From: a virus
Virus genome (UHGV): UHGV-0272730
Length of the DNA stretch: 64,000 nt
Reading direction: 5' to 3' (one strand)
Shown here piece by piece: positions 8,675 through 16,041 of this stretch (the stretch's first letter is position 1; each line of letters begins with the position of its first letter). The notes under the pieces were generated by a model that saw only the letters and a list, made by a program, of their open reading frames with translations, ran no database searches and was not told the DNA's origin. Both the position numbers and the translations under genes were made by a program.

Positions 8675-8750
8675 TGGAGAATCCGAAGGGACTCGAACCC
8701 TTATAAACCTGTTTTGCAGACAGGCACATAGCCATTTCTGTCACGGATTC
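8675..8750 (-). tRNA. tRNA-Cys (anticodon GCA)
   Basis: Cloverleaf parsed on reverse complement: acceptor GAATCCG/CGGATTC, anticodon arm CCTGT-CTGCAAA-ACAGG, T arm AAGGG-TTCGAGT-CCCTT, CCA encoded. Confidence 0.75.
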
Positions 8751-8754
8751 AAAT

Positions 8755-8847
8755 TGGAGGAAGATACCAGACTTGAACTGGTACACCGATTTCTCAGCTA
8801 CTGGCAGTTTAGCAAACTGCTCCCTTACCTTTTAGGGTTAATCTTCC
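8755..8847 (-). tRNA. tRNA-Ser (anticodon GCT), class II with long variable arm
   Basis: Acceptor GGAAGAT/ATCTTCC, anticodon arm GCAGT-TTGCTAA-ACTGC, about 21 nt variable arm, T arm ACCAG-TTCAAGT-CTGGT. Confidence 0.65.
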
Positions 8848-8848
8848 A

Positions 8849-9646
8849 TTATTTCTGTAATGCGTTCTTCATTTCTGGTGTTGCAATAGTGTCAATCACA
8901 CCAGTTTTACAAGCATCATCAAACCAGTCTGGTAAGATACCTGCTAAGAACCCATTGATATTCGTTTTAAGGTACTCTGCAATAAGAGCAGCTTCTTCTT
9001 CAATCATCTGCACAACTTCATCTGCATAAGCTGTAATTTTTGAAATACCTTCATTAATCTTACTAACAGCTTGCTCAGCTAAATCAGAAATAGTATCAAG
9101 ACCTTTGTCAATAGCATCTTGTAAGTCACTTAACACACCATTAACACTATCTAGTGCACTGTTAATCGTATCAATAGCTTTTTGACCATACTCTGTAGCA
9201 ACACCCATAATACCACTAAATGGTGTACAGCCAACTTGTTCACCTACTGCACCCATAACATTAGAGTAACCTTTTGCTACCTGCATACGTGATGAAAACT
9301 CATCAATGGACTTTTGACCATAGTCTGTTAAGGTCTTAGTAGTCGCTGTAGTGCTTGTAAGGCTTGTTGTAAAGCTGTTTAGAAGGACTGTTGTAAGTCC
9401 AGCAGCAACAAGTTTCTCCTTCATTGTAGGGTCTGTTACAGAGCTAATAGAACTTACAAGTGATGTAGAGGCAGCTACGGTTCCACCGAGAACTGCTGCA
9501 CCAGTAATAAGGGGATTGGAAAACCCTCTACCGGTTTTTAAGAGATTAAAAATCTCCTTACCTTGTTCTGTCATCTCTTTCATTAAGCACCTTTGAAATT
9601 GGTAGTCCAGTGGGATTTGAACCCTCTTCTCATGTTTTTCAGACAC
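8849..9646 (-). CDS. hypothetical protein embedded in tRNA array
   Basis: 265 aa ORF exactly filling the gap between two tRNAs; Ser/Thr/Ala-rich N-terminus and helical C-terminus. Confidence 0.45.
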   Translation of the reverse strand: MSEKHEKRVQIPLDYQFQRCLMKEMTEQGKEIFNLLKTGRGFSNPLITGAAVLGGTVAASTSLVSSISSVTDPTMKEKLVAAGLTTVLLNSFTTSLTSTTATTKTLTDYGQKSIDEFSSRMQVAKGYSNVMGAVGEQVGCTPFSGIMGVATEYGQKAIDTINSALDSVNGVLSDLQDAIDKGLDTISDLAEQAVSKINEGISKITAYADEVVQMIEEEAALIAEYLKTNINGFLAGILPDWFDDACKTGVIDTIATPEMKNALQK

Positions 9647-9676
9647 GCGCTTTAACCATATAAGCTACTTGGACTA
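9600..9676 (-). tRNA. tRNA-Phe (anticodon GAA), tentative
   Basis: Acceptor TAGTCCA/TGGACTA, anticodon arm CGTGT-CTGAAAA-ACATG, T loop TTCAAAT. Confidence 0.6.
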
Positions 9677-9681
9677 TAAAT

Positions 9682-9757
9682 TGGGGTGACCTACGGGATT
9701 TGAACCCGTATAGACCATGTTCACAGCATGGGTCATTACCATTTATGATAAGGCCAC
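9682..9757 (-). tRNA. tRNA-His (anticodon GTG)
   Basis: Anticodon arm CCATG-CTGTGAA-CATGG, T arm ACGGG-TTCAAAT-CCCGT, CCA encoded. Confidence 0.65.
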
Positions 9758-9788
9758 ATTTAAGGACTCTCGTAAGAATCCTTAGAAG

Positions 9789-9864
9789 TGGCAGCGGCAT
9801 AAGGATTTGAACCTTAATAGGACAGCTTCAGAGACTGTTGCATTGCCAGTTATGCTATACCGCT
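9789..9864 (-). tRNA. tRNA with anticodon CTG (Gln-type), tentative
   Basis: Acceptor AGCGGTA/TGCCGCT, anticodon arm ACAGT-CTCTGAA-GCTGT, T arm TAAGG-TTCAAAT-CCTTA, CCA encoded. Confidence 0.55.
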
Positions 9865-9869
9865 AAATT

Positions 9870-9948
9870 TGGTACTCCATATCGGATTCGAACCGATACA
9901 TAACACAGATTTTAAGTCTGGCCTCTCTGCCAATTGGAGTAATGGAGC
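9870..9948 (-). tRNA. tRNA with anticodon loop CTTAAAA (anticodon TAA, Leu-type) but short variable arm
   Basis: Acceptor GCTCCAT/ATGGAGT, T arm ATCGG-TTCGAAT-CCGAT; 79 nt, unusual for tRNA-Leu. Confidence 0.5.
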
Positions 9949-9950
9949 AT

Positions 9951-10026
9951 TGGCGGGGGATGTTGGAATTGAACCAACTTCTTCGATTTCAAAGACCGAG
10001 GTTTTAACCTTGTAAACTAATCCCCT
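9951..10026 (-). tRNA. tRNA-Gln (anticodon TTG), tentative
   Basis: Anticodon arm TCGGT-CTTTGAA-ATCGA, T arm GTTGG-TTCAATT-CCAAC, CCA encoded. Confidence 0.55.
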
Positions 10027-10034
10027 TTAAATCT

Positions 10035-10592
10035 TTACTTTCTCAGTGGATGAATAAAGAATGCCAACATAACTCTTTCCCTTGAGAATGCTCTTTCTTC
10101 TGGGACAACACTTTTTAGTTTCCATCCAATATAAATTCTCCAGTAAAACTGTTTACCAAAGACTTTAATTGATGGGATAAAGGCGAATAATCCCCAAGCA
10201 TTACTGTTCCACATTAGGAGGTAACCAGTCTGATTATCTTCAGGGTCAGAACTTACGTTGATATTACCTTTCCACTTAGTAACATCTTTTACATCTCTTC
10301 CTAATACATGGTAAGAGAAGTTATAAGCTTTGTTTCTCCAGAGCCATCCGACTCTTTGCATGTAGACGCCTAGTTTACCAATCCATCTAATATTAGCCCA
10401 TCTTTTAACGTGACCTTCATCACCATCAATTGGGTTGTCATATGTCTCCATCCATCTGAACCCGAAAGGTAAGTGTCCTTTCTTCTCACTGTAGAATGGA
10501 ACTACAAAAGGTGCTAAGATAACTGCTAAGATTGCTGCAAATGGCTCTAACAAAGCTAAGAAAATCCATGAAGCATACTTTAAGTATCTCAT
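10035..10592 (-). CDS. hypothetical membrane protein inside tRNA array
   Basis: 185 aa ORF with strongly hydrophobic N-terminus (WIFLALLEPFAAILAVILAPFVVPF) and W/R-rich remainder. Confidence 0.4.
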   Translation of the reverse strand: MRYLKYASWIFLALLEPFAAILAVILAPFVVPFYSEKKGHLPFGFRWMETYDNPIDGDEGHVKRWANIRWIGKLGVYMQRVGWLWRNKAYNFSYHVLGRDVKDVTKWKGNINVSSDPEDNQTGYLLMWNSNAWGLFAFIPSIKVFGKQFYWRIYIGWKLKSVVPEERAFSRERVMLAFFIHPLRK

Positions 10593-10831
10593 TGTCTAAT
10601 CCTCGTAAGGAGGTAAATGTTATTATTCGTTTCTAAACCTTCTGGTAAAACTGTCTCAAAAATAACACTCTTCAGATGTCTACCACCAAAACAATCACGT
10701 ATAAATCTTTCTACTCTAGCGGGGTCACATAAGTATCCCACTTTTAAGAAAATGTGGTGTTCAACACCAATGACCCTGACAAACTCAATACTCTCACAGT
10801 TTTCATGTTCAACTACTGTTAATGTTTGCAT
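10589..10831 (-). CDS. hypothetical protein
   Basis: 80 aa ORF overlapping downstream gene start by 4 nt. Confidence 0.35.
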   Translation of the reverse strand: MQTLTVVEHENCESIEFVRVIGVEHHIFLKVGYLCDPARVERFIRDCFGGRHLKSVIFETVLPEGLETNNNIYLLTRIRQ

Positions 10832-10848
10832 AGTATCACCTTTTTATC

Positions 10849-10924
10849 TGGCGCAGGATAAGGGATTCGAACCCCTATTAACAGCTTCGTAGACTGTTGC
10901 TCTTTCCATTTGAACTAATCCTGC
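10849..10924 (-). tRNA. tRNA-Arg (anticodon ACG)
   Basis: Acceptor GCAGGAT/ATCCTGC, D arm GTTC/GAGC, anticodon arm ACAGT-CTACGAA-GCTGT, T arm AGGGG-TTCGAAT-CCCTT, CCA encoded. Confidence 0.65.
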
Positions 10925-10929
10925 AAAAT

Positions 10930-11007
10930 TGGTGTTCCAAGACGGATTCGAACCGTCACTAATACAAGGTTTGAGCTTGCATCCTCTGCCAATTGGGATA
11001 CTGGAAC
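10930..11007 (-). tRNA. tRNA with anticodon loop CTCAAAC (anticodon CAA, Leu-type) but short variable arm
   Basis: Acceptor GTTCCAG/TTGGAAC, T arm GACGG-TTCGAAT-CCGTC; 78 nt. Confidence 0.5.
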
Positions 11008-11011
11008 ATGA

Positions 11012-11083
11012 TACTCACTAAAGGACTTGAACCTTTTTCTTCATCTTGTAAGGGTGATGTTTTACCATATAAACTAAGCGAGT
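11012..11083 (-). tRNA. tRNA-Val (anticodon TAC), tentative; CCA not encoded
   Basis: Acceptor pairs 7/7 with one G-U, anticodon arm TCACC-CTTACAA-GATGA, T arm AAAGG-TTCAAGT-CCTTT. Confidence 0.55.
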
Positions 11084-11179
11084 ATGAAAGAGGTCTGGAG
11101 TTGTGCCGCTAACTCAACTCCGTGGAATTTGTTACGGTCTTCAGTTGACTCAAAGCGGTCTTTCACTTGACCTCTGAAT

Positions 11180-11257
11180 TGGTGCTCCCACAAGGACTCG
11201 AACCCGCATCTCCATCCTTACAAGGGATGTGTAATAGCCAATTATACGAAAGCAGCA
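11180..11257 (-). tRNA. tRNA-like element with perfect Thr-type anticodon arm (TGT) but degenerate T and acceptor stems
   Basis: Anticodon arm CATCC-CTTGTAA-GGATG perfect; T stem GCGGG/CCTTG pairs poorly; 5' acceptor strand not complementary; abuts HNH gene stop at 11258. Confidence 0.3.
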
Positions 11258-11671
11258 TTAAACTTTTATGATACCAGCATGTACTTTTCTGTGACAGTTA
11301 GCGCACAAGACAATGCACTTTCTGATTTCATCTTTTAATCTTTTTGTGGAGTATGAATAAAGTGATGCAGGATTCAAATCTTTCTGGGAAGGGTCTGTAT
11401 GGTGTAAATCCAATGCAACTGGTTCTTTCTCACCACATATATGACATTTGCATAAAGCTTTGTACCTTCTAGCTAGAGTCTTGTTATACTCTCTCTTGAA
11501 GTTACGAGTGCTTTTAATAGCCTCTTTCCTTTTATCATTTGCTTGATAACTCTTTGCATCACGAAGTCTTGCACAGTCTTTGCATTGACTTTGAAGACCA
11601 TCTTTCTTGTTCTTATTCTTATGGAATAAGCTTTCATCTTTTGGTATTCTGCAAGTACTGCATATTTTCAT
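11258..11671 (-). CDS. HNH homing endonuclease
   Basis: 137 aa with Cys clusters and HNH core CHICGE...LDLHH...CANCH. Confidence 0.75.
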   Translation of the reverse strand: MKICSTCRIPKDESLFHKNKNKKDGLQSQCKDCARLRDAKSYQANDKRKEAIKSTRNFKREYNKTLARRYKALCKCHICGEKEPVALDLHHTDPSQKDLNPASLYSYSTKRLKDEIRKCIVLCANCHRKVHAGIIKV

Positions 11672-11685
11672 ATCACACCTTAATT

Positions 11686-11760
11686 TGGAGCATCCAGAGG
11701 GAATCGAACCCTCAACCTCAGTTTGGAAGACTGTAATTTTCCCGTTTAAACTATGGATGC
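11686..11760 (-). tRNA. tRNA-Gly (anticodon TCC)
   Basis: Acceptor TGGATGC/GCATCCA perfect, anticodon loop CTTCCAA, T arm GAGGG-TTCGATT-CCCTC, CCA encoded. Confidence 0.65.
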
Positions 11761-11766
11761 ACTAAT

Positions 11767-11842
11767 TGGTGGAGAAGCAGGGAATTGAACCCTGTACTTA
11801 AGTTTGCAAAACTTATGTTTTAACCATGTAAACTACATCCCC
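11767..11842 (-). tRNA. tRNA-Ala (anticodon TGC)
   Basis: Anticodon arm TAAGT-TTTGCAA-ACTTA perfect; G3-U70 wobble in acceptor stem (Ala identity element); T arm CAGGG-TTCAATT-CCCTG. Confidence 0.65.
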
Positions 11843-11848
11843 AATGTC

Positions 11849-11924
11849 TGGTACAGGTGGAGGGAATTGAACCCATCGTCTTACTGATTAAGAGTCAGCC
11901 GCATAACCATTTTGCTACACCTGC
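11849..11924 (-). tRNA. tRNA-Lys (anticodon CTT), tentative
   Basis: Anticodon arm GCTGA-CTCTTAA-TCAGT; close paralogue of tRNA at 13264-13339. Confidence 0.55.
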
Positions 11925-11931
11925 ATTAATT

Positions 11932-12009
11932 TGGTAGGAGACAAGGGATTCGAACCCTCAAACATCTCGTTCTAAGCGAGATAGGTTTACCAATTACCGT
12001 CAATCTCCC
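11932..12009 (-). tRNA. tRNA with anticodon loop CTTAGAA (anticodon TAG, Leu-type) but short variable arm
   Basis: Anticodon stem TCTCG/CGAGA perfect, T arm GAGGG-TTCGAAT-CCCTT; 78 nt. Confidence 0.5.
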
Positions 12010-12264
12010 ATTAAATCTTTTTAGAGAACTTCTAAGAACCTAAGCAACAAGGCTCCACAACAAGCTGTAATAACCTTAGAAGCCCTCTAAAAAGACCTAA
12101 ATAGGTCTTTGCATAGTCTTGTTTAATCCGGTGACTAGAACCTTTGGAGAGCTTGATATTATCTCTTCTCCGTGACACCTACTAGGTGCTTTGACAGTGT
12201 ACGACAATACACGAGGGATAAACCGACAATGCGAACAAGCATGGACGGAGTAAATCTTATTAGG
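12010..12264 (-). ncRNA. structured non-coding spacer in tRNA array (candidate stable RNA)
   Basis: 255 nt without convincing ORF; about 19 bp imperfect inverted repeat (12017-12036 vs 12074-12093) plus small hairpin AGACCTAAATAGGTCT. Confidence 0.3.
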
Positions 12265-12354
12265 CGGTAAGTAAAGGAGTCGAACCCTCACCGTATCTCT
12301 ACAGTGGCAACTGTTTTCAAGACAGTTTGGCTACCATTAGCCGCTACCTACCCC
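12265..12354 (-). tRNA. tRNA-Ser (anticodon TGA), class II
   Basis: Acceptor GGTAGGT/ACTTACC, anticodon arm ACTGT-CTTGAAA-ACAGT perfect, long variable arm, T loop TTCGACT. Confidence 0.6.
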
Positions 12355-12365
12355 TAATAAGACTT

Positions 12366-12448
12366 TGGCATGGGACGGAGGAGTTGAACCCCTTTGAAAC
12401 GGTTTTGGAGGCCGTTGCTCATGCCTTAGAGTCTTAACATCGTCCCAT
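12366..12448 (-). tRNA. tRNA-Trp (anticodon CCA), tentative, with enlarged D region
   Basis: Acceptor ATGGGAC/GTCCCAT perfect, anticodon arm ACGGC-CTCCAAA-ACCGT; 83 nt. Confidence 0.5.
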
Positions 12449-12460
12449 ATTATAATTCGA

Positions 12461-12489
12461 AGCTTACCCTGTTATCTCAACACTGTCAA
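12461..12489 (-). promoter_or_regulatory. candidate sigma70-like promoter upstream of tRNA at 12366-12448
   Basis: Minus strand TTGACA (12484-12489), 17 bp spacer, TAAGCT (12461-12466). Confidence 0.3.
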
Positions 12490-12590
12490 GCTTCTTCTCA
12501 GATTATTTACATGTTCTGGAAAACATGAGATACAGACCACCTCCTTACACGGAGACCCGATAAGGTCGTCTAAGCAATCTGCTAACTATT

Positions 12591-12667
12591 TGGTACACCC
12601 TACAGGATTCGAACCTGTAACTAACGATTTAGAAGACCGTTGCTCTATCCAATTGAACTAAGGGTGC
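12591..12667 (-). tRNA. tRNA-Arg (anticodon TCT)
   Basis: Acceptor GCACCCT/AGGGTGT, D arm GTTC/GAGC, anticodon arm ACGGT-CTTCTAA-ATCGT, T arm ACAGG-TTCGAAT-CCTGT, CCA encoded. Confidence 0.65.
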
Positions 12668-12987
12668 ATTAACATTTTAAAGGGTACTTATTGCATTTAA
12701 GCCAAGCCCCATAAGGGATACCCTTTAGAATGTTGCCCACCTTATTAATCATACCGTGGGCGAGTACGCCAAATTCTTTGATGAGGGATTGGAAGACCTC
12801 ACTGGTGTTTAGCCTATCAAGCTACTGCCAGAAAAACATTGTCGTTTGCATTTATTTTAAATTTTCAAAATAGACGCTACGCAACGAAAACTATTCAGAA
12901 TATGTACAACAAATTTCCCCACATTGTGTTACGTCTAACGCTCATGTATTGGTGTTTGAATTATACATATTATGAAGTGTTTTAGTT

Positions 12988-13016
12988 ACTATAAAGTAGT
13001 CACATCTCAATGTCAA
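12988..13016 (-). promoter_or_regulatory. candidate sigma70-like promoter within 360 nt tRNA spacer
   Basis: Minus strand TTGACA (13011-13016), 17 bp spacer, TATAGT (12988-12993). Confidence 0.4.
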
Positions 13017-13031
13017 CAACTTTATTGAAAT

Positions 13032-13107
13032 TGGTGCTGGTAGGTGGAATCGAACCACCGATGTTCCCTTATCAGGGGAGTGTTATAACCTTCTTAACTA
13101 TACCAGC
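13032..13107 (-). tRNA. tRNA-Ile (anticodon GAT)
   Basis: Acceptor GCTGGTA/TACCAGC, D arm GTTA/TAAC, anticodon loop CTGATAA, T arm GGTGG-TTCGATT-CCACC, CCA encoded. Confidence 0.65.
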
Positions 13108-13108
13108 T

Positions 13109-13185
13109 TGGAGGTTCAGATGGGAATCGAACCCACATTCATAGGGCTTATGAAACCCCTGCATTACCTTATCTGCGACTGAACC
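13109..13185 (-). tRNA. tRNA with anticodon CAT (Met, fMet or Ile2)
   Basis: Acceptor GGTTCAG/CTGAACC, anticodon arm GGGGT-TTCATAA-GCCCT, T loop TTCGATT, CCA encoded. Confidence 0.55.
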
Positions 13186-13263
13186 AGAATAAGTACCCTA
13201 GTTAGAGAAACTGTTGAGTGGGTGTTTCCAGCCGCGCAGGTGTTTCTCAGTTAAGGGTGAATT

Positions 13264-13339
13264 TGGTAGAAGTGGAGGGATTCGAACCCATCGCCTGTCA
13301 GATTAAAAGTCTGCCGCATCACCATTCTGCTACACTTCC
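13264..13339 (-). tRNA. tRNA-Lys (anticodon TTT)
   Basis: Acceptor GGAAGTG/CACTTCT, anticodon loop CTTTTAA, T loop TTCGAAT, CCA encoded. Confidence 0.6.
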
Positions 13340-13539
13340 ATTAAATTATCTTTGTAGATAAGCTACCCAGACTTGCTTAAGGTCTGTAGCGATGTGCCTT
13401 TTTGGGTTTAAATCTAGAATTTACCCTTTCACCCTTTGTGGTCGCATACTCACAGGTAAGCTTAATAACTTATCTACAAAGATAATTACCAGACCGTTGT
13501 TTATCATCTTAAGTGCTACCATTACACCAACTCGACATC

Positions 13540-13566
13540 TGCCGAGTGAAGGAATCGAACCTTCGC
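13540..13566 (-). other. tRNA-like 3' fragment (T arm plus acceptor strand only)
   Basis: GAAGG-TTCGATT-CCTTC T arm followed by ACTCGGC on the minus strand, but no complementary 5' acceptor strand or anticodon arm within about 100 nt. Confidence 0.3.
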
Positions 13567-13795
13567 CTTTTCTTTACCGAGAAATAGATTGTTTAAGTTT
13601 TGCTGTAAACGGTCTTCTGTAAATTTGTTGAGCCAGACCAAGTTTTAAATTTTTCAAAATTAAATTGGCTTGAAATTTTCATACGTTCTTGCTGTATTTG
13701 GTCTTCTGCTCCTTTAAAGGATACTCGTAAGAACCCTTTAAGGGAGGGGCTAAAATAGCCCTCTCAAACATCATTTTGAAATACTTATTATAATT

Positions 13796-13873
13796 TGGCG
13801 GTTACGAAGGGATTTGAACCCTCATCATCTCCCGTGACAGGGGAGTATTTTAACCAGATTAAACTACATAACC
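13796..13873 (-). tRNA. tRNA-Asp (anticodon GTC)
   Basis: Anticodon arm CTCCC-CTGTCAC-GGGAG perfect, T arm GAGGG-TTCAAAT-CCCTT, CCA encoded. Confidence 0.65.
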
Positions 13874-13879
13874 TTTATT

Positions 13880-13967
13880 TGGTGTGCCGTGTAGGAGTCG
13901 AACCTACCGAGTCTCAATGACAAGGGATTTACAGTCCCCACCGCTACCATCTACGGGATAACGACAC
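13880..13967 (-). tRNA. tRNA-Tyr (anticodon GTA), class II
   Basis: Acceptor GTGTCGT/ACGGCAC (one G-U), 3 bp D stem CCG/CGG, anticodon arm GGGGA-CTGTAAA-TCCCT, about 15 nt variable arm, T arm GTAGG-TTCGACT-CCTAC. Confidence 0.6.
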
Positions 13968-13976
13968 ATTTAAATT

Positions 13977-14053
13977 TGGCGGTTAGTCAGGGATTCGAAC
14001 CCTGTGCCATTCGCTTAACAGGCGACCGCACATACCTTATGTGCTTCCTAACC
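13977..14053 (-). tRNA. tRNA-Asn (anticodon GTT)
   Basis: D arm GCAC/GTGC, anticodon loop CTGTTAA, T arm CAGGG-TTCGAAT-CCCTG, CCA encoded. Confidence 0.6.
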
Positions 14054-14130
14054 TTAATACATTGCCAGACCGTGTTTTTTCTTTTATCCGCAAAAAGTAT
14101 TTTGTTGCTGAATACGGTCTTCTGCAAAAT

Positions 14131-14207
14131 TGGAGGCGGGTGCAGGAGTCGAACCTGCCGATACCATGCTAATGAGACATGTGAGACGCCCTTTCTCTAT
14201 ACCCGCA
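14131..14207 (-). tRNA. tRNA with anticodon CAT (Met-type; 1-72 mismatch hints at initiator)
   Basis: Anticodon arm CATGT-CTCATTA-GCATG, T arm GCAGG-TTCGACT-CCTGC, CCA encoded; first acceptor pair appears unpaired. Confidence 0.5.
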
Positions 14208-14298
14208 ATTCTTAATGACCAGACCAAATCTCTTCTTTGTCCGATTTACCTTCAGATGAATAAGATTAAGTTTGCTGTAATTGGTCTTCTGTCAAAAC

Positions 14299-14376
14299 TG
14301 GCGTTCCAGAAGGGATTTGAACCCTCAGATATCCACTTTGAAAGAGTGGTGACTTTACCATTTTGTCTACTGGAAC
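14299..14376 (-). tRNA. tRNA-Glu (anticodon TTC)
   Basis: Acceptor GTTCCAG/CTGGAAC perfect, anticodon arm CCACT-CTTTCAA-AGTGG perfect, CCA encoded. Confidence 0.65.
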
Positions 14377-14383
14377 ATTAATT

Positions 14384-14460
14384 TGGTCTCTGTTGGAGGA
14401 CTTGAACCTCCGGCCTTACCGCCCCAAACGGAACGCTCTACCAAGCTGAGCTAAACAGAG
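14384..14460 (-). tRNA. tRNA-Pro (anticodon TGG)
   Basis: Acceptor CTCTGTT/AACAGAG perfect, D arm GCTC/GAGC, anticodon loop TTTGGGG, T arm GGAGG-TTCAAGT-CCTCC, CCA encoded. Confidence 0.65.
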
Positions 14461-14625: not shown

Positions 14626-16041
14626 TTACCAGATGTAACGGTCAATCATTACTGCTTTGAGCATTACGCTGGTTGGGTCAAACTTCTCACCACCAAGCAG
14701 AGCTTTTAAAGTGGCTGGAGAGAACCCTGATACCATTGCTACACCGTTATCCTTAACAGATACTTCGCAAGTACCACTACGGTTTGCTAAGTACCAGAAT
14801 ACCAGTTGTGGCATTTCGTATCCAGCTTTTTTGTACTTACTACGAATTGCTTCAAAGTTTGTACGACCATTTGCACCGTCAACCTGATTGAACTCCATAT
14901 CAGAGAAGATGATAAGCTTACTTGGCATATCTTTCTGAGTCAAGTTGTTTCTCTTACCTGTCTCAAGAATGCGGTCAAAAGCTGCTTGTAAGTTAGTTGA
15001 ACCGTATTCAACATGACGCATTACCTGACGATGACGGTTTCGTAAATCACCACTCAGTTCAATGAAGTGAGGGTTTGTTGAATAAACCATCAACTCATTC
15101 TTAAAGCAACCTGTATTACGTTCTGCTACATACAATGCAAGTGAAACACCAATATCAAGAGCAGTAATTGAACCAAAATTCACCCAAGACATTGAACTTG
15201 AAACATCAGACATACATAGAATGTTTTCACCCTCTGCCATCCAGTTTGGTAGTGCTTTCCACTGCTCATTAGCAACATCTGCATTACCATACTTAACAGA
15301 TTTAATCACATCGTATGGGTAAACAGCACCAGCATTAATCTTAGTCTTACCCTTTGATAAGGACTCGATGTAAGCTTTGTAGCGCTCTCCATCTTTACGG
15401 TTAAACAGTTTTTGGTAACGTGCAGCAGCAAGTGAAGGAATCTTGCTGTAATCAATCTTACCAAACTCATTAGCAGAGATTTTTTGCTCAACTGTATCAG
15501 ATAGTGCAGACAACAGTGTGCGGTACTCTTTCTCACTCAAGTTGGCAAACTTGCAGAAACGTTTTACAAACTGTTTGTGGCGTGGTTTTACTCGTGGCAA
15601 CCACTTAGCTGCTAAACCTGCTGTTGCAGGGTCTAGTAATGCTGCTTCTAAATGTTTGAAGGCATCTGTCTCGAAACGAGTACCTACGAAGATTTTGAAG
15701 TCATCAAAACGACCAAGTTCTGCAATCTTATCCATAATGCGAAGAACCTGTGTAGGTTCTAAAACTTTATCTTCAATCGCTTGAAGCAAAACAGTTCTGA
15801 AGGCTTTACGCTCACCCATACCTTCTCGTACATCTCGCATATGCAGTAAAATACGAACTGCAACATCAACATCCTCACGCAAAGCTTTGTAGAACAAGTC
15901 TGGTAAGATTTCTACATTGCTACGGCTTGAACCAGCAGCTTTGTAAAAATCTACAAGAGCAGACATTGATGAAGTATGGTTTACAGCACCATTTTCAGTT
16001 CGACCTGCATGAAGGTGCGCATGTTTAAATAACTCGCTCAT
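14626..16041 (-). CDS. vWA-domain protein (MIDAS motif), possibly Ro60/TROVE-like architecture
   Basis: 471 aa; DVSSSMS matches the D-x-S-x-S MIDAS motif of vWA domains; helical N-terminal 250 aa; sits immediately upstream of the tRNA array. Confidence 0.5.
   Translation of the reverse strand: MSELFKHAHLHAGRTENGAVNHTSSMSALVDFYKAAGSSRSNVEILPDLFYKALREDVDVAVRILLHMRDVREGMGERKAFRTVLLQAIEDKVLEPTQVLRIMDKIAELGRFDDFKIFVGTRFETDAFKHLEAALLDPATAGLAAKWLPRVKPRHKQFVKRFCKFANLSEKEYRTLLSALSDTVEQKISANEFGKIDYSKIPSLAAARYQKLFNRKDGERYKAYIESLSKGKTKINAGAVYPYDVIKSVKYGNADVANEQWKALPNWMAEGENILCMSDVSSSMSWVNFGSITALDIGVSLALYVAERNTGCFKNELMVYSTNPHFIELSGDLRNRHRQVMRHVEYGSTNLQAAFDRILETGKRNNLTQKDMPSKLIIFSDMEFNQVDGANGRTNFEAIRSKYKKAGYEMPQLVFWYLANRSGTCEVSVKDNGVAMVSGFSPATLKALLGGEKFDPTSVMLKAVMIDRYIW

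What the first reader, a model, noticed from the sequence alone, without database searches (positions are those of the whole stretch)
9870..12009. Three tRNAs with leucine-type anticodons but class-I (short variable arm) architecture
The tRNAs at 9870-9948, 10930-11007 and 11932-12009 parse with anticodon loops CTTAAAA (TAA), CTCAAAC (CAA) and CTTAGAA (TAG), yet are only 78-79 nt with 5-7 nt variable regions. Bacterial tRNA-Leu is normally class II, and the class II Ser and Tyr tRNAs in this same array do have long arms. Either my manual parse is wrong, or these are structurally unusual Leu tRNAs or tRNAs with shifted identity.
Basis: seen in the sequence. Interest (0 to 1): 0.5.

Follow-up and report, generated by a model that had tools for sequence, protein, structure and literature searches.

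The report
Phage leucine tRNAs lacking the long arm
Three leucine tRNA genes in this Felix O1-like phage really do lack the long extra arm that bacterial leucine tRNAs normally carry, yet they keep every feature the host's charging enzyme is known to need, and the same short form is common in other phages.

Summary
ARAGORN and Rfam find tRNA-Leu(UAA), (CAA) and (UAG) at exactly the stated coordinates. They are 79, 78 and 78 nt long, with variable regions of 7, 6 and 5 nt. Ser (93 and 90 nt) and Tyr (88 nt) in the same 26-gene array keep their long arms.

The window is a Felixounavirus, 98.4% identical to phage Ro111lw. The three genes are near-identical in about 260 deposited genomes and are already annotated as tRNA-Leu.

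They are not plain class I tRNAs. They keep the Leu-type class II D arm: a 3-bp stem, a 13:22 mismatch and the loop AAUUGG(Y)A. They also keep A73, A14, A15-U48, G18G19 and A20a, the published E. coli LeuRS identity set, which does not include the long arm.

A loop-only pattern search shows the short form is widespread. It makes up about 20% of matching tRNA-Leu in IMG/VR viral contigs and about 4% in bacterial genomes. The stems covary strongly and A73 is almost invariant. In those same viral loci Ser and Tyr are almost never shortened.

Most likely these are working leucine tRNAs charged by host LeuRS. Charging was not tested, and E. coli LeuRS failed on the Streptomyces type I tRNA-Leu. I found no paper describing the phage form.

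The parts
9870..9948 (-). tRNA-Leu(UAA), 79 nt with CCA encoded. G1.U72, A73, A9, 3-bp D stem (C10-G25, U11-A24, C12-G23), C13.A22 mismatch, D loop AAUUGGCAG. Anticodon stem has a C27.U43 mismatch; loop CUUAAAA. Variable region GUUAUGU (7 nt, ending in U48).
   Evidence: at least 99% identical in 216 phage records; no match in 5,426 complete E. coli genomes
10930..11007 (-). tRNA-Leu(CAA), 78 nt with CCA encoded. G1-C72, A73, A9, 3-bp D stem (U10-A25, C11-G24, C12-G23), C13.A22 mismatch, D loop AAUUGGCAG. Anticodon loop CUCAAAC. Variable region AUUAGU (6 nt, ending in U48).
   Evidence: at least 99% identical in 160 records
11932..12009 (-). tRNA-Leu(UAG), 78 nt with CCA encoded. G1.U72, U7.G66, A73, G9. 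Irregular D arm: a 4-nt connector, 3-bp stem GGU/ACC and loop AAUUGGUAA. Anticodon loop CUUAGAA with A37 rather than G37. Variable region UGUUU (5 nt, ending in U48).
   Evidence: compensatory changes among homologues from phages dune, Arno162 and EASG3
8675..14460 (-). Array of 26 tRNA genes that contains the three Leu genes. They are tightly packed with neighbours (2-7 nt spacers to Gln, Gln, Arg, Val and Lys) and interspersed with small ORFs.
   Evidence: syntenic with Felix O1 and Ro111lw
8755..8847 (-). tRNA-Ser(GCU), 93 nt, long variable arm retained (class II comparator within the array)
12263..12352 (-). tRNA-Ser(UGA), 90 nt, long variable arm retained
13880..13967 (-). tRNA-Tyr(GUA), 88 nt, long variable arm retained

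Best explanation
These are three working phage leucine tRNAs reading UUA/UUG, UUG and CUA (possibly more CUN codons). They descend from ordinary class II tRNA-Leu but have lost the variable stem-loop, leaving 5-7 unpaired nucleotides. They keep the parts that bacterial LeuRS reads: discriminator A73, the U8-A14 and A15-U48 tertiary pairs, G18G19 at the Leu-specific place in the D loop, A20a, and an intact elbow. Host LeuRS can therefore most likely still charge them with leucine, and they supplement host tRNAs for codons the AT-rich phage uses more than E. coli does. The arm could be lost in Leu but not in Ser or Tyr because only LeuRS does not depend on it. What is shown: the gene structure, its conservation and covariation, the presence of the identity nucleotides, the spread among phages, and the restriction to Leu. 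What is inferred: charging by LeuRS, use in translation, and the reason the arm was lost.
For: (1) They are real tRNAs: ARAGORN and Rfam both detect them, with full cloverleaves and encoded CCA.
(2) They are under selection. They are near-identical across about 260 Felixounavirus records, and UAG homologues keep 7 of 21 pairs through changes on both sides.
(3) The identity set is present. All three have A73, A14, A15, G18G19, A20a and U48, and the D-arm layout equals that of E. coli leuZ, leuX and leuW fetched here. G1.U72 in the UAA tRNA mirrors host leuZ. The review PMC9976931 states that in E. coli A73, A15-U48, G18G19 and A20a are essential, and that neither the anticodon nor the long arm is crucial. 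Aquifex tRNA-Leu with the arm deleted is still charged, with lower affinity, whereas deleting U48 abolishes charging (PMC2377443).
(4) It is a family, not an accident. A pattern that specifies loops only retrieved 124 unique short-arm sequences from IMG/VR. Their unspecified stems are 87-98% paired with many pair types per position. A73 is present in 123 of 124, 13:22 is non-Watson-Crick in all the commonest combinations listed (G.A, C.A, A.A), and A20a is present in all the commonest D-loop variants listed.
(5) It is specific to Leu. In the same viral loci 168 of 353 tRNA-Leu are short, against 1 of 129 tRNA-Ser and 1 of 49 tRNA-Tyr.
(6) Codon use fits. In 54 long ORFs of the window UUA is 25% and CUA 9% of Leu codons, and CUG only 17.5%. 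From my own knowledge E. coli is about 13%, 4% and 50%.
(7) Short-arm Leu genes also occur in cultured phages of unrelated families: Aeromonas phage Akh-2 (Demerecviridae), Lactobacillus phage LpeD (Herelleviridae), the T5-like phage EASG3 and Pectobacterium phage Arno162.
Against: No charging or expression data exist for these tRNAs. E. coli LeuRS could not leucylate the natural type I tRNA-Leu(CAA) of Streptomyces coelicolor (PMC6614811), so a short arm is not automatically tolerated. That tRNA has C48 rather than U48, which may explain the failure, but this is my inference. Removing the arm lowers affinity in the systems tested. The UAA tRNA has a C27.U43 mismatch and the UAG tRNA has an irregular D arm. 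The UAG gene is annotated 'pseudo' in one record and 'tRNA-OTHER' in another. Rfam scores (44-47.5 bits) are among the lower ones in the array.
Confidence: 0.75

Rival explanations
1. Counter-defence or 'self-marking' tRNAs. The arm was lost under selection because some host tRNA-targeting enzyme, or a phage enzyme that destroys host tRNA, recognises class II tRNAs by the long arm. Armless Leu tRNAs would then keep leucine decoding going during infection. This would be an added role on top of being leucine tRNAs.
For: The short form is several-fold enriched in viral over bacterial DNA: about 19-23% against about 4% of pattern matches. Within the genus Tequintavirus, T5 and EASG3 carry a long-arm and a short-arm Leu(UAG) at the same Ala-Leu position. 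Enzymes with a preference for type II tRNAs exist; eukaryotic SLFN11 is cited as such in PMC13462974.
Against: I know of no bacterial defence that targets tRNA-Leu through its arm. The prokaryotic Schlafen studied cuts tRNAs broadly at the T loop. Ser and Tyr arms are retained, so any arm-directed attack would still hit them. Loss because LeuRS tolerates it, combined with deletion bias, explains the pattern without invoking selection.
Confidence: 0.12
2. Decaying or poorly functional genes: relics of class II tRNA-Leu whose arm was deleted and which are no longer charged efficiently.
For: 'pseudo' and 'tRNA-OTHER' labels in some records. Mismatches in the UAA anticodon stem and in the UAG D arm. 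A neighbouring tRNA-Thr in this window does look degraded. E. coli LeuRS failed on the Streptomyces type I tRNA-Leu.
Against: At least 99% identity in 160-216 genomes. Compensatory changes among diverged homologues. Strong covariation and near-invariant A73 and U48 across 124 independent viral sequences. CCA is encoded. All three Leu genes in the genome are of this type, with no long-arm back-up.
Confidence: 0.07
3. Shifted identity: the tRNAs read leucine codons but are charged with another amino acid, or by a non-LeuRS route.
For: The body length resembles class I tRNAs. A73 is shared with several other isotypes. UAA and CAA share A35 and A36 with the Phe anticodon.
Against: The D arm is specifically Leu type and the full E. 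coli Leu identity set is present. There is no G3:U70, no G-1 and no long arm. From my own knowledge, synthetases that use A73 other than LeuRS also read anticodon bases that are absent here. Systematic missense at 40-50% of the phage's own Leu codons would be harmful.
Confidence: 0.04
4. Parsing artefact: the true anticodon or fold differs and the tRNAs are ordinary class I tRNAs of another isotype.
For: None found. The thermodynamic MFE fold of the UAA sequence alone is not a cloverleaf, which is common for AT-rich tRNAs.
Against: Two independent methods give the same frame and loops. Third-party annotation agrees. Covariation supports the cloverleaf.
Confidence: 0.01

Closest known systems
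Host class II tRNA-Leu (E. coli leuZ UAA, leuX CAA, leuW UAG)
   Same: Same anticodons. Same D-arm layout (3-bp stem, purine/pyrimidine 13 opposite A22, A14 A15 U16 Y17 G18 G19 Y20 A20a), A73, U48 and a GU/UU end to the variable region. G1.U72 occurs in the UAA isoacceptor of both.
   Different: The host tRNAs are 85-87 nt with a 13-15 nt variable stem-loop; the phage ones are 78-79 nt with 5-7 unpaired nt. The phage UAA and CAA tRNAs have A9 and C12-G23, where long-arm tRNA-Leu are 99-100% G9 and G12-C23. Phage UAG has A37 where the host has G37. There is no detectable sequence match in E. coli genomes.
Type I tRNA-Leu(CAA) of Streptomyces coelicolor (Fan et al. 2019, PMC6614811)
   Same: A bacterial-domain tRNA-Leu with a 5-nt variable loop that coexists with, or replaces, class II forms. 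It is charged by a single bacterial-type LeuRS, and the length of the variable loop including nucleotide 48 is critical.
   Different: The Streptomyces tRNA has C48 (loop ACAGC) and does not use A73 as an identity element. E. coli LeuRS cannot charge it. The phage tRNAs have U48 and A73 and must work in hosts with E. coli-type LeuRS. The paper does not mention phages.
Animal mitochondrial tRNA-Leu (type I)
   Same: Short variable region. Identity rests on A73 and A14 without a long arm (PMC9976931).
   Different: Mitochondrial tRNAs have a dedicated mitochondrial LeuRS and often degenerate D/T loops. The phage tRNAs keep canonical G18G19 and a UUCGAAU T loop and rely on the host cytoplasmic enzyme.
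Engineered arm-less tRNA-Leu (E. coli minimalist tRNAs; Aquifex delta-V-arm mutant)
   Same: These show that bacterial LeuRS charges tRNA-Leu without the long arm, provided A73, U48 and the D/T-loop tertiary pairs are intact (PMC9976931; PMC2377443).
   Different: Those are laboratory constructs with reduced affinity. The phage genes are natural, conserved, and part of them have a remodelled core (A9, C12-G23).
T5 tRNA-Leu(UAG) and the short-arm allele of T5-like phages
   Same: Phage-encoded Leu(UAG) in a tRNA array next to tRNA-Ala. The EASG3 allele shares its T arm and much of its body with the Felixounavirus UAG gene (about 75% identity).
   Different: T5 itself carries an 85-nt class II form. 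According to the record's note, changing its anticodon converts it into an amber suppressor. No such test exists for the short form.

Membership tests
tRNA (Rfam RF00005) | Cloverleaf covariance-model score above the gathering threshold | tested here: met
   47.5, 44.0 and 44.5 bits against a threshold of 29; ARAGORN cloverleaves
Bacterial tRNA-Leu as recognised by E. coli-type LeuRS | Discriminator A73 | tested here: met
   A73 in all three; 123 of 124 in the viral short-arm family
Bacterial tRNA-Leu as recognised by E. coli-type LeuRS | U8-A14 and A15-U48 tertiary pairs | tested here: met
   U8, A14, A15 and U48 are present in all three sequences; U48 in 157 of 160 short-arm viral tRNA-Leu. 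Actual pairing is inferred, not observed.
Bacterial tRNA-Leu as recognised by E. coli-type LeuRS | G18G19 at the Leu-specific position, A20a, and an intact T loop for G18:U55, G19:C56 and U54:A58 | tested here: met
   D loop AAUUGG(C/U)A with the same spacing as leuW; T loop UUCGAAU
Bacterial tRNA-Leu as recognised by E. coli-type LeuRS | Leucylation by LeuRS | not testable with these tools
   Needs an aminoacylation assay. The literature is split: arm-less E. coli and Aquifex constructs are charged, but the Streptomyces type I tRNA is not charged by EcLeuRS.
Class II (type II) tRNA | Variable region of more than 10 nt forming a stem-loop | tested here: not met
   7, 6 and 5 nt with no stem. 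Ser and Tyr in the same array do meet it.
Class II (type II) tRNA | 3-bp D stem with a non-Watson-Crick 13:22 pair | tested here: met
   C13.A22 in the UAA and CAA tRNAs; 3-bp GGU/ACC stem in the UAG tRNA
Class I (type I) tRNA | Variable region of 4-5 nt | tested here: inconclusive
   UAG has 5 nt, CAA 6 nt and UAA 7 nt. Across viral relatives 5 nt is the norm (140 of 168 short ones).
Class I (type I) tRNA | 4-bp D stem with a Watson-Crick 13-22 pair | tested here: not met
   Only 3 bp in all three
Streptomyces-type type I tRNA-Leu | 5-nt loop ACAGC with C48; A73 not used; needs the ScoLeuRS leucine-specific domain | tested here: not met
   The phage tRNAs have U48 and different loops (compared). 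Dependence on a particular enzyme is not testable here.

The most novel reading that the evidence does not exclude
Short-arm tRNA-Leu is a phage-propagated lineage that is selectively maintained because it is invisible to an arm-dependent activity during infection. That activity could be a host defence nuclease or nucleotidyltransferase, or a phage-directed purge of host class II tRNAs. Arm loss would then be an anti-defence adaptation rather than neutral streamlining. The remodelled core (A9, C12-G23) would be a compensatory redesign that restores LeuRS affinity.
Probability: 0.12. Interest if true: 0.75.

Novelty: new member of a known kind. Interest (0 to 1): 0.42.

Why it matters
Textbooks and the 2019 Streptomyces study treat bacterial tRNA-Leu as almost always class II, and that study reported that E. 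coli LeuRS cannot charge a natural type I tRNA-Leu. Here hundreds of E. coli and Salmonella phages, and many unrelated phages, carry only arm-less Leu tRNAs that retain the E. coli identity set. If they are charged, they are natural evidence that the long arm is dispensable for enterobacterial LeuRS in vivo. They would also provide ready-made compact Leu tRNA scaffolds. The fact that only Leu, not Ser or Tyr, loses the arm gives an evolutionary read-out of which synthetases depend on it. There is a practical point for annotation too: these genes are sometimes labelled 'pseudo' or 'tRNA-OTHER'.

Tried and rejected
- **Single-sequence folding.** It gave a non-cloverleaf MFE for the UAA tRNA and weak z-scores. 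This is uninformative for AT-rich tRNAs, so I relied on covariance-model and comparative evidence instead.
- **Literature searches.** Several term sets for a description of phage type I tRNA-Leu found only the Streptomyces paper and general identity reviews. Larkin et al. 2002 (PMC115294) is not held in the library.
- **Prokaryotic Schlafen as an arm-specific nuclease.** I checked whether the recent paper offers one. It does not; cleavage is broad and at the T loop.
- **Genomic context of the five short-arm hits in bacterial genomes.** Crude ORF calling in these high-GC contigs was uninformative, so whether they are native or prophage-borne is unresolved.
- **Pfam on the ORF at 11258-11671.** It gave no hit, although the Felix O1 homologue is annotated as an HNH endonuclease.
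- **Host origin.** blastn of the UAA tRNA against 5,426 complete E. coli genomes found nothing, so I rejected recent capture from the host or presence in E. coli prophages.
- **tRNAscan-SE.** It is not available here. I used what appear to be tRNAscan-derived annotations in near-identical records as a proxy.
Full report
**1. What is there**

ARAGORN finds 26 tRNA genes on the minus strand between 8675 and 14460. Three are tRNA-Leu: taa at 9870-9948 (79 nt), caa at 10930-11007 (78 nt) and tag at 11932-12009 (78 nt). There is no other tRNA-Leu in the window.

Rfam's tRNA model matches all three above its threshold, at 47.5, 44.0 and 44.5 bits against 29. Its alignment of the UAA gene puts the anticodon loop at CUUAAAA. 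ARAGORN's structures show:
- seven-pair acceptor stems, with G1.U72 in the UAA and UAG tRNAs;
- five-pair T stems with a UUCGAAU loop;
- encoded CCA;
- variable regions GUUAUGU, AUUAGU and UGUUU (7, 6 and 5 nt).

The two tRNA-Ser (93 and 90 nt) and the tRNA-Tyr (88 nt) in the same array keep a stem-loop in the variable region.

**2. Where the window comes from**

The region is 98.4% identical to Escherichia phage vB_EcoM-Ro111lw and about 96% identical to Salmonella phage Felix O1, so the window is a Felixounavirus (Ounavirinae). There are 258 matching phage records.

Felix O1 RefSeq and many other records already annotate three tRNA-Leu at these positions. Ro111lw carries what looks like tRNAscan-SE labelling: tRNA-Leu(taa), tRNA-Leu(caa) and 'pseudo,tRNA-Leu(tag)'. 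Phage NBSal004 labels the UAG gene 'tRNA-OTHER'.

- The UAA gene is at least 99% identical in 216 records.
- The CAA gene is at least 99% identical in 160 records.
- The UAG gene occurs in several diverged versions.

**3. Anatomy compared with the host**

I fetched E. coli K-12 leuZ (UAA, 87 nt), leuX (CAA, 85 nt) and leuW (UAG, 85 nt).

The phage tRNAs are not ordinary class I bodies. The D arm has the class II Leu layout: a 3-bp stem, a non-Watson-Crick 13:22 pair (C.A in the UAA and CAA tRNAs), and the loop A14 A15 U16 U17 G18 G19 Y20 A20a. The spacing is the same as in leuW. All three have A73 and a U immediately before the T stem (U48). G1.U72 in the phage UAA tRNA is also present in leuZ.

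What is missing is just the stem-loop of the variable region. The UAG tRNA has an irregular D arm, with a four-nucleotide connector, a GGU/ACC stem and a nine-nucleotide loop. This arm is conserved in Pectobacterium phage Arno162. The single Felix O1 difference (C11U) falls at an unpaired position.

**4. Are they under selection as tRNAs?**

I compared five homologues of the UAG gene: this window, Felix O1, phage dune, Arno162 and the T5-like phage EASG3. They keep 7 of 21 predicted pairs through changes on both sides, including a wholesale swap of the anticodon stem.

**5. Is this peculiar to Felixounavirus?**

No. Short tRNA-Leu genes were confirmed in four other cultured phages:

| Phage | Family or group | tRNA-Leu found |
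|---|---|---|
| Aeromonas phage Akh-2 | Demerecviridae | UAA, 77 nt |
| Lactobacillus phage LpeD | Herelleviridae | UAG 76, UAA 77, CAA 74 nt |
| EASG3 (T5-like) | Tequintavirus | UAG, 77 nt |
| Pectobacterium phage Arno162 | Ounavirinae | two, 77-78 nt |

T5 itself has an 85-nt class II Leu(UAG) at the same Ala-Leu position where EASG3 has the short one. Most of the 168 weaker blastn hits to the UAG gene are T5-like phages. They align across the variable region with only a one-base length difference, so they are short too. Alignment lengths likewise indicate short forms in Erwinia phages and in a Mycobacterium phage (Sunshine924).

**6. Survey of public collections**

I searched with a pattern that fixes only loop motifs: AATTGG, 13 nt, YTYAR, a gap, then GGTTCRANYCC.

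- With the gap open to 14-34 nt, 120 loci came back, 23 of them short-arm loci already retrieved and 97 new long-arm loci. That is about 19% short.
- Counting all ARAGORN tRNA-Leu in those loci, 42 of 183 (23%) have a variable region of 8 nt or less. The distribution is bimodal, 5-7 nt against 9-25 nt.
- The same open pattern on one genome per bacterial or archaeal species gave 5 short among 120 matches. They come from Gordonia, Herbiconiux, a Planctomycetota MAG with three short Leu genes in a row, and two other contigs. I could not tell whether these are native or prophage-borne.

The pattern says nothing about stems, so the stems are an independent check. In 124 unique short matches:
- the acceptor is fully paired in 97;
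- the T, anticodon and D stems are 96-98% paired;
- each stem position shows three to six pair types, and pairing collapses when the 3' partner is shifted by one base;
- the discriminator is A in 123 of 124;
- CCA is encoded in 88;
- the commonest 13:22 combinations are all mismatches (G.A, C.A, A.A);
- the position after Y20 is A in all the commonest D-loop variants listed.

**7. Only Leu loses the arm**

In the viral loci, 168 of 353 tRNA-Leu are short, but only 1 of 129 tRNA-Ser and 1 of 49 tRNA-Tyr. The Leu count is inflated by how the loci were selected; the Ser and Tyr counts are not. This matches what is known of the synthetases. [quoted passage not shown]

**8. A remodelled core in part of the family**

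Long-arm tRNA-Leu, whether viral or bacterial, are 99-100% G9 with G12-C23. Among short-arm ones about half have A9 and 54% have C12-G23. The commonest combination is A9 / C12-G23 / C13.A22. The Felixounavirus UAA and CAA tRNAs are of this type; the UAG tRNA, Akh-2 and EASG3 keep G9 / G12-C23.

Positions 9 and 12:23 form a base triple in class I tRNAs, which is established tRNA structural knowledge. I infer that part of the family adjusted its core after losing the arm. This was not tested.

**9. Mechanism**

The E. coli leucine identity set is A73, A15-U48, G18G19 and A20a plus the D/T-loop tertiary pairs. The anticodon and the long arm are not crucial, and E. coli tRNA-Leu variants lacking the anticodon arm and long arm remain active (PMC9976931). 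In Aquifex, deleting the arm mainly lowers affinity, while deleting U48 abolishes charging (PMC2377443). All of these nucleotides are present in the three phage tRNAs.

The window is 38.7% G+C. In its long ORFs the Leu codon shares are UUA 25%, UUG 14%, CUU 29%, CUA 9% and CUG 17.5%. From my own knowledge E. coli uses CUG for about half of its Leu codons and CUA for about 4%. The three anticodons therefore serve codons the phage uses more than its host.

The most likely account is ordinary: these are functional leucine tRNAs charged by host LeuRS that supplement decoding.

**10. The caveat**

Fan et al. 2019 (PMC6614811) state that almost all bacterial tRNA-Leu are type II. They also report that E. 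coli LeuRS could not leucylate the natural type I tRNA-Leu(CAA) of S. coelicolor. That tRNA has the loop ACAGC with C48, so it lacks the A15-U48 element that the phage tRNAs keep. This may explain the failure, but that is my inference. Charging of the phage tRNAs remains untested.

**11. Rivals**

- **Parsing artefact.** Excluded.
- **Decay.** Unlikely given the conservation and covariation and the absence of any long-arm Leu gene in the genome.
- **Shifted identity.** No support. The identity set is Leu, and there is no G3:U70 and no long arm.
- **Counter-defence role for arm loss.** Possible but speculative. The short form is enriched in viral DNA and alternates with the long form within one genus. 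However, I found no arm-directed bacterial activity against tRNA-Leu. The prokaryotic Schlafen examined is not arm-specific, and the Ser and Tyr arms are retained.

**12. Novelty**

The genes are annotated in public records. The type I tRNA-Leu architecture is known from mitochondria and Streptomyces, and the dispensability of the arm for bacterial LeuRS is known from mutagenesis. I could not find any description of this architecture in phages, or of its breadth there, in the searchable library. That library omits most subscription journals, so the older T5 and BF23 tRNA literature could hold a mention.

I rate it a new member of a known kind, of moderate interest. It is a clean, testable case of a natural arm-less tRNA-Leu operating in E. 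coli and Salmonella.

Noticed in passing
window 11180-11256 (-): In this window tRNA-Thr(UGU) has only 5 of 7 acceptor pairs and a 3-bp T stem, and it is missing from the Rfam gathering-level hits. The Felix O1 copy (L001 4551-4627) is regular. Its 3' half looks replaced, and it directly abuts the ORF at 11258-11671. It may be a degraded or recombinant tRNA.
   Followed up: partly
window 11258-11671 (-): A 137-aa ORF sits inside the tRNA array. It ends in a CxxCH...H motif, and its Felix O1 homologue is annotated as an HNH endonuclease, but it has no Pfam hit at 1e-3. Homing endonucleases inside tRNA arrays could drive exchange of tRNA alleles between phages.
   Followed up: partly
window 11932-12009 (-), anticodon loop: The Leu(UAG) loop is CUUAGAA with A37, where host leuW has G37, the m1G37 site. 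T5 and T5-like Leu(UAG) genes also have A37.
   Followed up: no
L004 11625-11709 versus L005 1497-1573: Within Tequintavirus, T5 carries an 85-nt class II Leu(UAG), while EASG3 carries a 77-nt short-arm Leu(UAG) at the same position next to tRNA-Ala. The neighbouring tRNA-Ala sequences also differ. This looks like cassette replacement.
   Followed up: partly
IMG/VR loci L006-L222; L003 1296-1387 and 2574-2645: 48 viral tRNAs whose anticodons belong to class I isotypes carry long variable arms. In Lactobacillus phage LpeD there is a 92-nt 'tRNA-Ile(tat)' and a tRNA with a four-base anticodon call, tttg. These may be class II bodies with altered anticodons.
   Followed up: no
short-arm versus long-arm tRNA-Leu: Long-arm tRNA-Leu are 99-100% G9 and G12-C23. 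About half of the short-arm ones have switched to A9 with C12-G23, which suggests the tertiary core co-evolved with loss of the arm.
   Followed up: partly
window 14626-16041 (-): A 471-aa ORF flanks the tRNA array and carries DUF2828 and DUF7788. Its Felix O1 homologue is annotated as an 'RNA-binding protein'. Any link to tRNA biology is unexplored.
   Followed up: no
L241, L276, L286, L324, L331 (bacterial genome contigs): Short-arm tRNA-Leu also occur in Gordonia, Herbiconiux, a Planctomycetota MAG (three in a row: cag, taa, gag) and two other contigs. Their 5-nt loops (CCAGT, ACAGT) resemble the ACAGC loop of Streptomyces type I tRNA-Leu. Whether they are native or prophage-borne is unresolved.
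   Followed up: partly
window 13880-13967 and 14131-14207 (-): ARAGORN calls tRNA-Tyr(GUA) and one tRNA-Met(CAU), but neither reaches Rfam's gathering score. Felix O1 RefSeq flags its Tyr and His tRNAs as pseudo.
   Followed up: no
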